A stretch of DNA of 13,180 bases from a virus (Duplodnaviria > Heunggongvirae > Uroviricota > Caudoviricetes). Position 1 is the stretch's first letter, and the number at the start of each line of letters is the position of its first letter. The position numbers are program-made. Shown here piece by piece: positions 9,001 through 12,000 of this stretch. Location: IMG/VR virus record IMGVR_UViG_2703719368_000028; one strand, written 5' to 3'.

Positions 9001-12000
9001 ATTTATTCTTGAAGCTTTCGCTAAGTACTAACATTTAATAGCTCCTCATATTTCGAACGAGGTAATTGATAGAGGGTGATTCCTACCGGTTTTCCGTTAC
9101 TCATGTACGCATCATCAAGGTGACCAACACGGGTAGCGCCAAGCAAACGGATAATTGCCCGTCCGTATTTGGTGGTGTCAGGAACCATGGTGATGCTGTT
9201 AAGGAATGGTGAGTTTTCGAGAAGCCATTTGCAGAATAATCGATGCCCTTGTAGTGCATATTCGCCACGGAATCCGGGGTCATACACCGCATGGCATTCA
9301 ACAACGCTATGCCAGAAGTTACGCACTTCATGAACTCCAGCCAGCACTAATCCTTCGTAGATGCCGAGATATACCGCATCAGGCTTGATGTAGTATTTAT
9401 CTCCACTGTCTACGATATTCCCCGTGTTTACCGGGTTGTTAAGGAATTCTGCAAGTTTCACCGGGTTATCGATGAGCTTTATTTCCATCACTGCTCCGCA
9501 ATGATTTTGATGGTTGTGGCAGTAAACGCCGCGCCATTCGACTGAATGGTTAACGTGCTGCCATTTGTGGCAAGAAAGCCGTCTTTATCCACGCTGAAGA
9601 ACGTAGCTAACAGGATGTTGTCGGTTGTTGTTGCCGAGTTGCGACTGCTTACTAGCGTGTCAGGAACAGAACCGGAGAATGTTAGCTGCATTGACCTGTT
9701 GGCGGTTCCGCTGGGCCACGTCCCGACAATCGACAGCTTGAAGAACAAGGTTTTGTTCTCGTTGAACACAACCATCTTGTTGTTAACGGTGTCGAAGAAT
9801 GGTGCCAACGTCCCGGATGACGGCGTAAGCGTTTTCAGCAGGCTAACAAGGTTGGTCGGCGCTGTCGGGATGGTTACTGATACGCCAGAGTAAACAACCT
9901 CTGACTTCTTGCGCGTAGTGGCATACTCCAGAGCATTAATGCGCGTTTCATGGTCTGAAACCTGCGATTCCAGCGACTGAACTCTGGTATCAAGCGATGC
10001 AATATCGCTTTCATTCAAGGCAATCAGTGGGTTTACGTCATGGAGTGGGCTCAACACCAGTCAGAGCCGCATGTACACGCAATAATCATGGTGAACGAAA
10101 GAAGCATTAATGGGCAAGCTGGCAAAATTGTCAGCAAATGGGTAACACTGGCAAACAATGCAATCCCATCAAATGTTCCTCCCCAGTGGGATCTAGATTT
10201 GAAAGGTCAGCAATATTCAGAGCCTACAAAGTGTATAGGTAAACAGATTGATTACATGGCAAAGCCCGAAACTAAGTTAAATGACTTTAATAGAGAGGCG
10301 AGCAAGAGCCTATATGATTGGTCAGATGCCAACGTTTGGGGTTATTCGAATGGCTGGGCGCGGCATGAGATAAAAAAAGAAACACTTTCTATCACTGGCT
10401 TTCATGCTGTAAGACGCATACTAAAAGCCGTTCAGGCATCAAGGAAAGACAACTACAAAGCTAAGCGACAGATACAGCGTACATTGAAACGACAAGACAT
10501 AAATCGATCACCAATCACCCCGTTCCAAGCACCGTTAATTAGCAAACACGATTGGGATTTATCAGTGATAGCGGTCACCAAAGAGGCAGAGACAGAGCGC
10601 AGGGAATTACTATCCTCACAGATAATAAACTCGAACAAAGTACAAACCCACCCACTGTTAAGGATGTTAAGAAGAGCACGAGTGAGAGCATCCAGAGCCA
10701 AAAGAGAAAGCGGAGGTTATGACCATTACTACTAGTAGTGACAGATCGTGACAAGGCGGTGCAAAAAACGACCAATAATAAGAGAGATATGCCTGCCAAA
10801 CCGCCAAAAGCGCGGAGCGCGGCAAACGCCGCGAGAGGCGCAAGAAGGCGAACCTATCCATTGAAACGGTCAGAAGCGCATCGCGCTCGACGACCGAAGT
10901 CCCCACTAACACCGTTAACGAAAGATCAAAGTCTTAGAAAAAAATGACGTTTCTTTGATGGACTTCCATCCGTAAAAATCAAATTTTGAGAAAAAGTACT
11001 TATAGAAATTAATCGCTCTATAAGGATAAGTTGACGTTAGTTTAAAGTGATAAAACATTAAAGAAAAAACGTAAAATCAAATACATAAAATAAGTCACCA
11101 AGGGATCATTTTCAGAAAACAACGTCAACGTAACGTCAACTCTGTAAGAACTTTTTTGGTCACTTTTTGGGTTGAATGTACGTAAAAATCCCCAGCAGTG
11201 AAATTTGAGCGCGTAAGCACAATTCTGAGGGGCTTTTTGTCTGTAGGTTAGGCAGTGTAACTAACAATACAAGAAGTTAGCTCTGACTAACTATTTAATT
11301 AACTTTTCAATCTAATTGCGTTAGATATTATACCCTAACGCAATATTTTTAATTCAATAATGTCTGTAAATTGTTATTACTTATAATTATACATTTAACT
11401 ATATCTACATTGGCTGCTTCCAATTACTACTTACGTAACGGAATCTCGGATCCTCTGTTTTTGGCTCGGTATAATAAGAATCATCAATAGTAAAGTTCGA
11501 CGCTAATTTATCCCGAAGCCCACCTAAACGTTCAATGCTTGTTAGTTCGTTAGTAACATCCTTGAAAACGGTAGAAAATGCTTTATGTTGTTTAGACTTC
11601 ATAAATTCAGGAGTGCTCAGTGCAAACTCTTTATCAGGCAAACCTGGAATACCCACGAGTCCTGTCAATGAATTTATACATTTTATCAAAAAACTGCCTT
11701 GAATACCTTGATTTGATGGAACACCGTAGCTTCGTTTAATATCTCCAGATATTTTATCTAAATCACTTAGTAATTTTGTTACTTTTTTATTTCCTGCACT
11801 TATCCCCGATTCATCGTAGGTCACATGAATCTCTCGGATTACATCTCGACACGTACGAAAATGATCATGTGTTCTAAGCTCTAAAGCTGAATTGATAACT
11901 TGAGAGACATTTCCTGTTTCGTTTGCTAGCCATGCAGAAAATATTGGTAAATCTAATGAAATAGTAGATGTGCGTCCATGATCTACAATTTCAGATCTTG

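What the first reader, a model, noticed from the sequence alone, without database searches (positions are those of the whole stretch)
10945..11195. Iteron-like repeat array in a 450-bp AT-rich non-coding region
Three direct copies of CGTAAAA(A)TC sit at roughly 100- and 110-bp spacing. A second motif occurs as a tandem pair (AACGTCAAC-g-t-AACGTCAAC) and as an inverted copy (GTTGACGTT) about 80 bp upstream. This layout is not explained by any coding feature. It resembles a plasmid or phage origin with iterons, an operator array for a DNA-binding protein, or recombinase arm-type sites. It lies directly downstream of the 231-aa basic protein (10040..10735), which would be the obvious candidate binder.
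Basis: seen in the sequence. Interest (0 to 1): 0.6.

Follow-up and report, generated by a model that had tools for sequence, protein, structure and literature searches.

The report
Orphaned rolling-circle origin-like repeat region
The repeats are real and lie in a conserved non-coding control region that always accompanies a rolling-circle-type (HUH) nuclease gene in small Klebsiella plasmids and tRNA-Arg islands, but in this E. coli O157 genome that gene is truncated, so the region is most likely a dead relic.

Summary
All three CGTAAAA(A)TC copies and all three exact AACGTCAAC copies in the 13-kb window fall within 10945-11195.

The window is the E. coli O157:H7 argW locus. The 231-aa ORF is the C-terminal two thirds of a 350-aa HUH rolling-circle Rep-class protein (Pfam REP_ORF2-G2P). 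That protein is intact in other strains, inside a 7.7-10.8 kb argW island.

The same module also sits on complete 4.5-6.3 kb Klebsiella plasmids. It consists of a small HTH protein, a winged-helix-like protein, the HUH protein, GC hairpins and this array. HUH proteins diverge to about 25% identity. The non-coding order of boxes is nevertheless kept.

My reading is an origin-type nick-and-bind region for the HUH enzyme. It is not a theta-type iteron origin, an integrase arm-site array or a res site.

Two caveats apply. The plasmids also carry a ColE1-type origin, so the output may be replication, mobilisation or ssDNA export. The boxes also do not co-vary with HUH clade.

In O157 the HUH gene lacks motif I, and the integrase and both small DNA-binding genes are deleted. 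The array here is therefore an orphan.

The parts
10040..10735 (+). Truncated HUH (Rep-class) nuclease gene, annotated in RefSeq as 10088-10735. It keeps the HxH motif (HVH, residues 11-13) and the YxxK motif (IDYMAK, Tyr72). It lacks the N-terminal 119 aa, including motif I.
10810..10841 (.). GC-rich hairpin 1 (GCGC..CGCGGC-AAAC-GCCGCG..GCGC), in the stretch that follows the HUH allele.
10868..10895 (.). Two-tier hairpin 2 (GGTC..AGCGC-ATC-GCGCT..GACC). The inner stem is kept in islands and plasmids, with two compensatory pair changes.
10928..10944 (+). AAAGTCTTAGAAAAAAA box. It is present in the 9 aligned representatives and in the three others mapped by motif (L067, L068, L062); it is altered in Klebsiella island L004 (AAACCCTTAGAAAA) and shortened in L057.
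10945..10967 (+). TGACGT (10945-10950) followed 10 bp later by TTGATGG, overlapping the conserved GAWGGRCWTCC box (10957-10967). Spacing to the AAAGTC box is fixed.
10971..10980 (+). CGTAAAAATC copy 1. Conserved in islands; reads CGTAGAAAC or GGTAGAAAC in plasmids.
10999..11024 (.). Inverted pair CTTATAGA / TCTATAAG. The left arm CTTATA(G/C) is kept in every relative. The distance between the arms ranges from 9-10 nt to about 600 nt (a cargo ORF in plasmid L064).
11030..11038 (+). GTTGACGTT, one copy of the TTGAYGT repeat unit.
11041..11115 (.). Hypervariable AT-rich spacer (pairwise diversity 0.31). It contains 'copy 2' CGTAAAATC (11070-11078), of which only AATCAAA is conserved.
11121..11148 (+). 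Tandem AACGTCAAC-gt-AACGTCAAC (11-bp period) followed by CTGTAAG. It is homologous to CAACGTAAGGTC...CTRTAAG in the plasmids.
11181..11190 (+). CGTAAAAATC copy 3, the right-hand end of the family-wide conserved region. Cargo begins just beyond it in E. coli islands.
11196..11242 (+). Tail conserved only in one island subgroup. It forms an imperfect hairpin followed by CTTTTTG (weakly terminator-like).

Best explanation
The array is the distal part of a roughly 460-bp origin-type cis region (10736-11195). This region belongs to an HUH (rolling-circle Rep-class) nuclease module.

In intact relatives the module is an operon. It encodes a 64-68-aa excisionase-like HTH protein, a 126-128-aa winged-helix-like protein and a 336-379-aa HUH protein. 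The non-coding region lies downstream of the HUH gene, sometimes behind cargo; in the circular contig L057 it lies upstream of the operon.

The non-coding region has a fixed order:
- conserved GC hairpins;
- a fixed-spacing core, AAAGTCYTAGAAAAAAA - N12 - TGAAGGGCATCC - about 36 nt - CTTATAS;
- repeated short boxes (TTGAYGT, STATAAG, CGTAdAAATC) around an AT-rich variable spacer.

Inferred mechanism, not shown:
- The small DNA-binding proteins occupy the repeated boxes.
- The HUH enzyme nicks one strand next to the hairpin/core.
- The nick starts rolling-circle DNA synthesis.

What that synthesis serves is unresolved. It could be copying of the excised island, conjugative mobilisation, or ssDNA export.

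In this O157 genome the module is broken. A P22/Sf6-like prophage remnant abuts a 5'-truncated HUH gene, and the integrase, AlpA, HTH and winged-helix genes are gone. The array here is an inactive orphan.
For: Shown:
1. The repeats are far above chance.
2. The ORF is a truncated copy of a 350-aa protein annotated 'rolling circle replication-associated protein'. It hits PF23343 REP_ORF2-G2P (29.8 bits, cutoff 27.8). Across 13 homologues only 12 columns are invariant. They include G80 and T86 (motif I), P129-H130-x-H132 (HUH) and Y191-x-x-K194, in the order typical of Rep proteins.
3. Hairpin, core and boxes accompany five HUH clades that are only 20-30% identical to each other. This holds for argW islands of E. 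coli, E. albertii and Klebsiella. It also holds for complete circular Klebsiella plasmids and a 4.54-kb circular contig.
4. The core has fixed internal spacing in the 9 aligned representatives.
5. The inner hairpin is paired in 98% of cells, with 2 of 5 pairs changed on both sides.
6. Block II (diversity 0.10-0.16) is an island of conservation between the spacer (0.31) and a divergent tail.
7. All ten array-bearing plasmids that I checked have an HUH gene; an eleventh (OW849042.1) was not opened.
8. More distant HUH homologues (26% identity) are the only long ORF on 1.64-kb circular contigs. The family therefore includes true replication initiators.
9. The winged-helix-like protein has an invariant helix (GxHExSR) across all clades, which parallels the constancy of the boxes.
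Against: - The plasmids also carry a ColE1-type origin. RNAI scores 42 and 32.9 bits (below the cutoff of 47), and the region is about 70% identical to roughly 1,900 ColE1-like plasmids. The HUH module is therefore not their only replicon.
- Plasmid pEC4365 survives with Tn4401 inserted at about codon 64 of the HUH gene.
- The boxes do not co-vary with HUH clade. This is unusual for a Rep-specific binding site.
- Cargo genes separate or split the region at four different places. The blocks therefore do not need to be contiguous.
- No nick site can be assigned by computation.
- ssDNA folding of the array itself is unremarkable (z = -1.08).
- The hairpin covariation rests on a hand-made alignment and about two independent events.
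Confidence: 0.55

Rival explanations
1. The array is an operator or architectural array that the HUH enzyme does not nick. The boxes would bind the element's small DNA-binding proteins (HTH_17, winged-helix-like) or host factors. Their role would be to regulate or insulate the convergent HUH operon and the small acidic ORF/cargo operon, or to help plasmid maintenance.
For: - The boxes are constant while the HUH protein diverges, which matches the invariant helix of the 128-aa protein.
- The region always lies between convergent transcription units.
- The blocks tolerate separation by cargo.
Against: - No sigma-70-like promoter is found in 10736-11300.
- The array is not upstream of any conserved gene in most layouts.
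- It offers no explanation for the conserved hairpin plus fixed-spacing core next to an HUH gene in every member.
Confidence: 0.2
2. The array is a hijack or recombination site. Either a helper phage recognises it as a packaging signal (pac/cos-like), or it is a recombination hot spot through which cargo genes are swapped.
For: - Cargo sits at four different slots flanking or inside the region.
- In plasmid L064 a cargo ORF lies between the CTTATAC and CTATAAG arms.
- Islands with 95-100% identical core proteins occur in three genera.
- An inverted site, an AT-rich spacer and a tandem pair loosely recall lambda cosB (my own knowledge, not checked here).
Against: - The region has no similarity to any of 50,697 phage records.
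- No second copy of CGTAAAAATC or of the other boxes lies at the far end of the cargo.
- No terminase-related gene is present.
Confidence: 0.1
3. The array encodes a small RNA or a transcription terminator. The tandem AACGTCAAC pair can form a weak hairpin followed by a T-run on the minus strand. A weak hairpin with CTTTTTG lies at 11186-11245 on the plus strand.
For: - The terminator-like scan flags 11140-11124 on the minus strand.
- A hairpin at the 3' end appears in the RNA fold.
Against: - RNA folding is no better than shuffles (z = 0.15 on the plus strand, -1.09 on the minus strand).
- There is no Rfam match.
- The CATCAAC allele would pair mostly through wobble pairs.
- About 0.9 terminator-like sites are expected by chance in this stretch.
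Confidence: 0.07
4. The repeats are chance clustering of short words in AT-rich DNA.
For: The motifs are short, 6-10 bp.
Against: - Shuffle controls argue against it.
- The same ordered boxes are retained with HUH proteins only about 25% identical.
Confidence: 0.02

Closest known systems
Double-strand origins of rolling-circle plasmids, such as pMV158 with its nic hairpin and its 'bind' locus of three 11-bp direct repeats (my own knowledge, not checked here)
   Same: - An HUH initiator gene lies next to a non-coding region with a conserved hairpin.
- Short direct repeats occur at one helical turn (11121/11132; 10945/10955).
- The modules are separable.
   Different: - The Rep belongs to the gpII/ORF2-like Pfam family, not Rep_2.
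- The repeats do not co-vary with the Rep clade.
- The region is much longer (about 460 bp).
- The plasmid relatives also have a ColE1-type origin.
Ff (f1/M13) intergenic region and laboratory phagemids; also Vibrio pTLC/RS1 satellites that encode gpII-like Reps (my own knowledge, not checked here)
   Same: - The initiator is in the same Pfam family as inovirus gpII.
- A long non-coding region holds GC hairpins followed by an AT-rich repeat-bearing part.
- An inverted pair plus a direct copy of a short box occurs at about 11-bp steps (L063, L065).
- A ColE1 origin plus a gpII-type origin on one small plasmid is exactly the phagemid layout.
   Different: - There is no sequence similarity to Ff origins and no coat or assembly genes.
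- No helper is known.
- The integrated forms use a tyrosine integrase at a tRNA gene, not XerCD at dif.
oriT regions of mobilisable plasmids and of integrative mobilisable elements whose relaxases are related to rolling-circle initiators (MobT/Rep_trans, Rep_2, PHA00330; PMC5704250)
   Same: - The context is a small ColE1-type plasmid or a tRNA island with an integrase and AlpA.
- Small DNA-binding proteins are encoded just upstream of the HUH gene.
- An inverted repeat sits close to a conserved sequence.
- There is evidence of spread between genera.
   Different: - No such relaxase is known in Enterobacteria.
- MOB-suite calls all these plasmids non-mobilisable.
- No coupling protein is present.
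- The region lies downstream of the nuclease gene, not upstream.
SaPI/PICI replication origins: iteron sets flanking an AT-rich stretch just 3' of rep (my own knowledge, not checked here)
   Same: - The position is immediately 3' of the initiator gene in an integrase- and AlpA-bearing island.
- Two conserved repeat-bearing blocks flank a variable AT-rich spacer.
   Different: - The initiator is an HUH nuclease, not a helicase-type Rep or primase.
- The island has no capsid-redirection or terminase genes.

Membership tests
Theta-type iteron origin (pSC101/R6K/P1-like) | Three or more directly repeated iterons of about 17-22 bp, regularly phased | tested here: not met
   The repeat units are 6-10 bp and only two are in tandem. 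The spacings of the three CGTAAAA(A)TC copies are 99 and 111 bp, and copy 2 is not conserved.
Theta-type iteron origin (pSC101/R6K/P1-like) | Adjacent RepA/Rep_3-type iteron-binding initiator | tested here: not met
   The adjacent gene is an HUH nuclease (PF23343), not a Rep_3/RepA protein.
Rolling-circle double-strand origin | Linked HUH initiator with motifs I, II (HUH) and III (Tyr) | tested here: met
   This is met in intact relatives. In this window the ORF keeps HUH and Tyr but lacks motif I and 119 N-terminal residues, so the local copy is defective.
Rolling-circle double-strand origin | Conserved hairpin or inverted repeat at or next to the nick site | tested here: inconclusive
   The hairpin at 10868-10895 is conserved with two compensatory pairs. 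The CTTATAGA/TCTATAAG pair is present. The nick site itself cannot be located by computation.
Rolling-circle double-strand origin | Initiator-specific binding repeats that change with the initiator | tested here: not met
   The boxes are the same across HUH clades that are 20-30% identical. The two alleles of the tandem pair do not follow the HUH type.
Rolling-circle double-strand origin | Supports replication with its initiator | not testable with these tools
   The plasmid relatives carry an additional ColE1-type origin, so their existence does not prove this.
oriT of a mobilisable element | Relaxase gene with accessory DNA-binding proteins beside the site | tested here: inconclusive
   The HTH_17 protein and the winged-helix-like protein are encoded directly upstream of the HUH gene in every member. 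The HUH protein has the Rep-type motif order, and its hit to the Pfam Relaxase domain is below cutoff (17.4 bits against 24.6).
oriT of a mobilisable element | Transfer by a helper conjugative system | not testable with these tools
   MOB-suite typing calls them non-mobilisable. This only means that no known relaxase was recognised.
Tyrosine-integrase arm-type sites | Located within the att region, next to the core site, on an integrase-bearing element | tested here: not met
   In L002, attL is the argW 3' end and attR lies about 135 nt after the resolvase stop. The array is about 4.8 kb from attL and about 5.2 kb from attR there. It is also present on integrase-less plasmids.
Resolvase res site | Repeated subsites immediately upstream of the serine recombinase gene | tested here: not met
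   A different repeat (TGTCTCAATWGGGT, three copies) occupies that position. The array is separated from the recombinase gene by cargo and a small ORF.
Known structured RNA (Rfam) | Match to a covariance model | tested here: not met
   There is no match in 10736-11404 at E <= 1.
Phage cos/pac site copied from a helper | Sequence similarity to a phage packaging region | tested here: not met
   There is no blastn or tblastn match in 50,697 phage records. Very short sites would escape this test.

The most novel reading that the evidence does not exclude
The element family (argW islands plus small ColE1-type Klebsiella plasmids) would be a natural 'phagemid' or ssDNA-export system. A gpII-like HUH protein would nick this region and spin off single strands. 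Those strands would be exported through a helper inovirus, or through a conjugative pore using a Rep-type relaxase not yet known in Enterobacteria. The hairpin/array region would serve as (+) origin and export signal. The four cargo slots around it would spread anti-phage genes between genera.
Probability: 0.15. Interest if true: 0.75.

Novelty: new variant of a known kind. Interest (0 to 1): 0.4.

Why it matters
For this window alone it matters little. The array explains an otherwise puzzling 669-bp non-coding gap in E. coli O157:H7 as the scar of a decayed mobile element.

The family behind it is more interesting, for four reasons:
- It is unannotated. Nearly all its proteins are called 'hypothetical' and its plasmids are typed as non-mobilisable.
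- It moves between Escherichia, Klebsiella and Citrobacter.
- It carries variable cargo, including known defence genes (GapS6a/b), next to this region.
- One plasmid member carries KPC-2.

Knowing that the hairpin/core/array region is the cis site of its HUH module gives a direct handle for testing how these elements replicate or spread.

Tried and rejected
- **IHF sites.** ATCAA-N4-TTR matches once (10925-10936), which is no more than chance. The consensus is not kept in the plasmids. Dropped.
- **DnaA box.** Only one 7/9 match was seen by eye (TTATCCTTA, minus strand at about 11020). It is not conserved in other variants.
- **Invertible cargo segment.** No inverted repeats flank the cargo.
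- **Cassette-type insertion at CGTAAAAATC.** No further copy lies at the far end of the cargo.
- **Protein-coding explanation.** The 69-aa ORF is broken by a 7-nt indel in relatives.
- **AlphaFold model of the HUH protein.** A 6-sequence alignment gave pLDDT 38, which is unusable, so no fold search was run on it.
- **PDB searches for the HUH protein.** Sequence and profile searches found nothing.
- **Fold search of the 128-aa protein.** It gave only non-significant hits (best E = 0.14). Most were winged-helix regulators, which is suggestive only.
- **RNAalifold on the hairpin.** With an automatic alignment it recovered only the invariant GCGC stem. The compensatory pairs appear only in my hand-made ungapped alignment.
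- **Genome-collection scan.** It gave only 2 loci.
- **Pattern scans of viral and metagenome contigs.** About half the matches were chance hits to unrelated AT-rich DNA.
- **Literature searches.** Searches for the island, the plasmid pEC4365 and accession KX783440 found no description.
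Full report
**1. The observation**

- CGTAAAA(A)TC occurs three times in the whole window (10971, 11070, 11181). The chance expectation is 0.22, and no shuffle out of 200 reaches three.
- AACGTCAAC occurs exactly three times: a tandem pair at 11121 and 11132, and an inverted copy at 11030.
- Four of the seven TGACGT hexamers in the window lie in this 200-bp stretch.
- The non-coding gap runs from 10736 to 11404, with GC 0.32-0.40.
- Further repeats exist. These are an ATCAAA..AAAA family at 10922, 10975 and 11073; TGACGT followed 10 bp later by TTGATGG at 10945-10961; an inverted pair CTTATAGA/TCTATAAG at 10999-11024; and CTGTAAG at 11142.

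**2. Genomic context**

- The window is the argW (tRNA-Arg CCT, 5640-5714) region of E. coli O157:H7. It is 100% identical in many O157 and O55:H7 genomes.
- Right of argW lie IntS and the remnant of a P22/Sf6-like prophage. The remnant consists of a gp20 N-terminus fused to an acyltransferase C-terminus, gp7, gp14, and a 5'-truncated tail-needle gene ending at 10057.
- The 231-aa ORF starts there on the other strand.
- It has no Pfam, PADLOC or NCBIfam hit of its own.
- It is the C-terminal two thirds of a 350-aa protein that is intact in other E. coli. PGAP names that protein 'rolling circle replication-associated protein'.
- The full protein hits PF23343 REP_ORF2-G2P at 29.8 bits against a cutoff of 27.8.
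- The truncated copy keeps the HxH motif and the IDYMAK tyrosine motif. It lacks the first 119 residues, including motif I.

**3. The intact element**

In strains such as AR_0067, M171-1 and Z1323CEC0018 the gene sits in a 7.7-10.8 kb island.
- The island is bounded by the argW 3' end and a 23-26-bp repeat of it.
- The gene order is: integrase, a 251-aa ORF, AlpA, a 63-aa ORF, a 64-aa HTH_17 protein, a 128-aa ORF, the HUH gene, this non-coding region, variable cargo, a small acidic ORF on the opposite strand, and a serine recombinase with its own repeat set upstream.
- Cargo differs between strains: GapS6a/b, a ParA-family protein, a DpnII/MboI-like protein, or unknown proteins. In O157 it is the 470-aa ORF at 11405-12817.
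- O157 therefore retains only the right half of the island. The array is an orphan there.

**4. Conservation within the islands**

I aligned fifteen distinct variants from E. coli genomes, metagenomes and Klebsiella.
- Block I (about 10905-11040) is nearly invariant.
- The spacer (11041-11115) is hypervariable, with pairwise diversity 0.31.
- Block II (11116-11195) is conserved, with diversity 0.10-0.16.
- Copies 1 and 3 of CGTAAAAATC are kept as CGTAdAAATC. Copy 2 is kept only as AATCAAA.
- The tandem pair is always a tandem, in two allelic forms (CGTCAAC or CATCAAC).
- The HUH gene exists as two alleles about 50% identical, while the other island proteins are 95-100% identical between genera. 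Neither Block I nor the tandem allele follows the HUH allele.
- In a Klebsiella island, three cargo genes sit between the HUH gene and the array.

**5. Plasmid relatives**

- An exhaustive HMMER search found only 21 family representatives.
- Two of them, about 30% identical, lie on small contigs. One is a 4.54-kb circle with identical 30-nt ends.
- tblastn then found complete circular Klebsiella plasmids of 5.5-6.3 kb with the same backbone. That backbone is an HTH protein, a 126-aa ORF, the HUH gene, the non-coding region, a small acidic ORF, a recombinase and a MerR-like HTH protein.
- Five HUH clades are only 20-30% identical to each other. All keep the same ordered non-coding elements:
  - a hairpin rGCGC-nnC-GCGCy;
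  - 31 or 40 nt further, AAAGTCYTAGAAAAAAA;
  - 12 nt further, TGAAGGGCATCC;
  - about 36 nt further, CTTATA(G/C);
  - then TTGAYGT-type repeats, often as an inverted pair plus a direct copy at about 11-bp steps;
  - then STATAAG, CAACGTAAsGTC, CTRTAAG and CGTAdAAATC.
- The inner hairpin stem shows two compensatory pair changes and is 98% paired. This rests on a hand-made alignment and few independent events.
The strictly conserved core lies partly left of the reported span.

**6. What complicates the simple 'origin' reading**

- The plasmids also carry a ColE1-type origin. RNAI scores 42 and 32.9 bits, below the cutoff of 47. The region is about 70% identical to roughly 1,900 ColE1-like plasmids. 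The islands lack this origin.
- One plasmid, pEC4365, has Tn4401 with KPC-2 inserted at about codon 64 of the HUH gene.
- The HUH module is therefore not the plasmids' sole replicon.
- Cargo occurs at four different slots:
  - right after the HUH stop codon (L062);
  - between the hairpins and the core (L004);
  - between the CTTATAC and CTATAAG arms (L064);
  - after copy 3 (E. coli islands).
- The blocks are therefore separable.
- On the other side, still more distant homologues (26% identity) are the only long ORF on 1.64-kb circles. Every member hits only Rep-type Pfam families.

**7. Candidate binders**

- The 128-aa protein upstream of the HUH gene is present in every member. It has an invariant GxHExSR helix.
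- Its AlphaFold model has mean pLDDT 71.5, and about 80-86 over residues 1-60. The model shows three helices and a beta-hairpin, a winged-helix layout.
- Fold-search hits are not significant, but most are winged-helix regulators.
- The 64-68-aa HTH_17 protein is also constant.
- Both genes are deleted in O157.
- The constancy of these two proteins matches the constancy of the boxes better than the fast-evolving HUH protein does. This is an inference.

**8. Interpretation**

I read the whole 10736-11195 region as the origin-type cis site of the HUH module. The hairpin and core would be the likely nick region. The repeated boxes would be the binding sites that assemble the complex.

Whether the rolling-circle product serves island replication, conjugative mobilisation or ssDNA export cannot be decided here. 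The review PMC5704250 argues that the distinction between rolling-circle initiators and relaxases is blurred in integrative mobilisable elements.

Several alternatives fail on tested features:
- A theta-type iteron origin, integrase arm sites and a res site all fail (see the membership table).
- A known RNA is not supported, since there is no Rfam hit.
- Structured RNA or ssDNA is not supported, since the fold z-scores are unremarkable.
- A phage-derived packaging site is not supported.

**9. Verdict**

The region is origin-like and linked to the neighbouring gene's family. It is not made of classical iterons, and it is not functional in this genome.
- The kind of feature is known. This family and its layout appear undescribed.

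Noticed in passing
window 1280-1363 (+): Rfam sRNA-Xcc1 match (78 bits, cutoff 53). It lies at the 5' end of the 260-aa ORF 1278-2060, in the prophage on the other side of argW.
   Followed up: no
window 7208-8344 (-): A single ORF fuses a P22 gp20-like injectosome N-terminus (residues 12-217) to the C-terminal part of an Acyl_transf_3 protein. It is probably a deletion scar in the P22/Sf6-like prophage remnant.
   Followed up: partly
window 11405-12817 (-): A 470-aa ORF with GC of about 0.36 and no Pfam, PADLOC or NCBIfam hit (phrog_13435, function unknown). It occupies the cargo slot that holds GapS6a/b or other defence-like genes in other strains, so it is a candidate uncharacterised defence gene. 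A 156-nt stretch is 77% identical to a hypothetical gene on about 500-kb Pseudomonas aeruginosa plasmids.
   Followed up: partly
window 11315-11344: A perfect 10-bp inverted repeat (ATTGCGTTAG / CTAACGCAAT, 10-nt loop) with T-runs on both sides. It is probably a bidirectional terminator at the 3' end of the 470-aa gene.
   Followed up: no
L001 15449-15581 (about 170 nt beyond the right end of the window): Three copies of TGTCTCAAT(T/A)GGGT, two of them inverted, lie just upstream of the island's serine recombinase gene. This is probably its res site or operator.
   Followed up: partly
window 4275-5519 (-) and 5840-7033 (+): Two different tyrosine integrases flank argW. This indicates elements on both sides of the tRNA gene and tandem occupation of the right-hand site (IntS prophage remnant plus island remnant).
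   Followed up: partly
L066 (pEC4365, NC_032098.1) 4778-15667: Tn4401 carrying blaKPC-2 is inserted in the HUH gene of a member of this small-plasmid family. The identical 15,668-bp plasmid is recorded in both Enterobacter cloacae and Klebsiella pneumoniae.
   Followed up: partly
L065 1813-1850: A 38-nt segment just right of the array in one plasmid is 95-97% identical to more than 100 tiny (1.7-3.3 kb) enterobacterial plasmids. It may be a shared recombination or transfer site.
   Followed up: no
L059-L061: These are 1.64-kb circular contigs (identical 30-nt ends). They encode only a 324-aa HUH homologue (26% identical) and an 84-aa ORF, making them minimal rolling-circle replicons of the same protein family.
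   Followed up: partly
L058 5747-6586: A 279-aa HUH homologue (32% identity) lies at the end of a contig that also encodes gp32, a RecA/UvsX-like protein and a 5'-3' exonuclease. That is a T4-like phage context.
   Followed up: no
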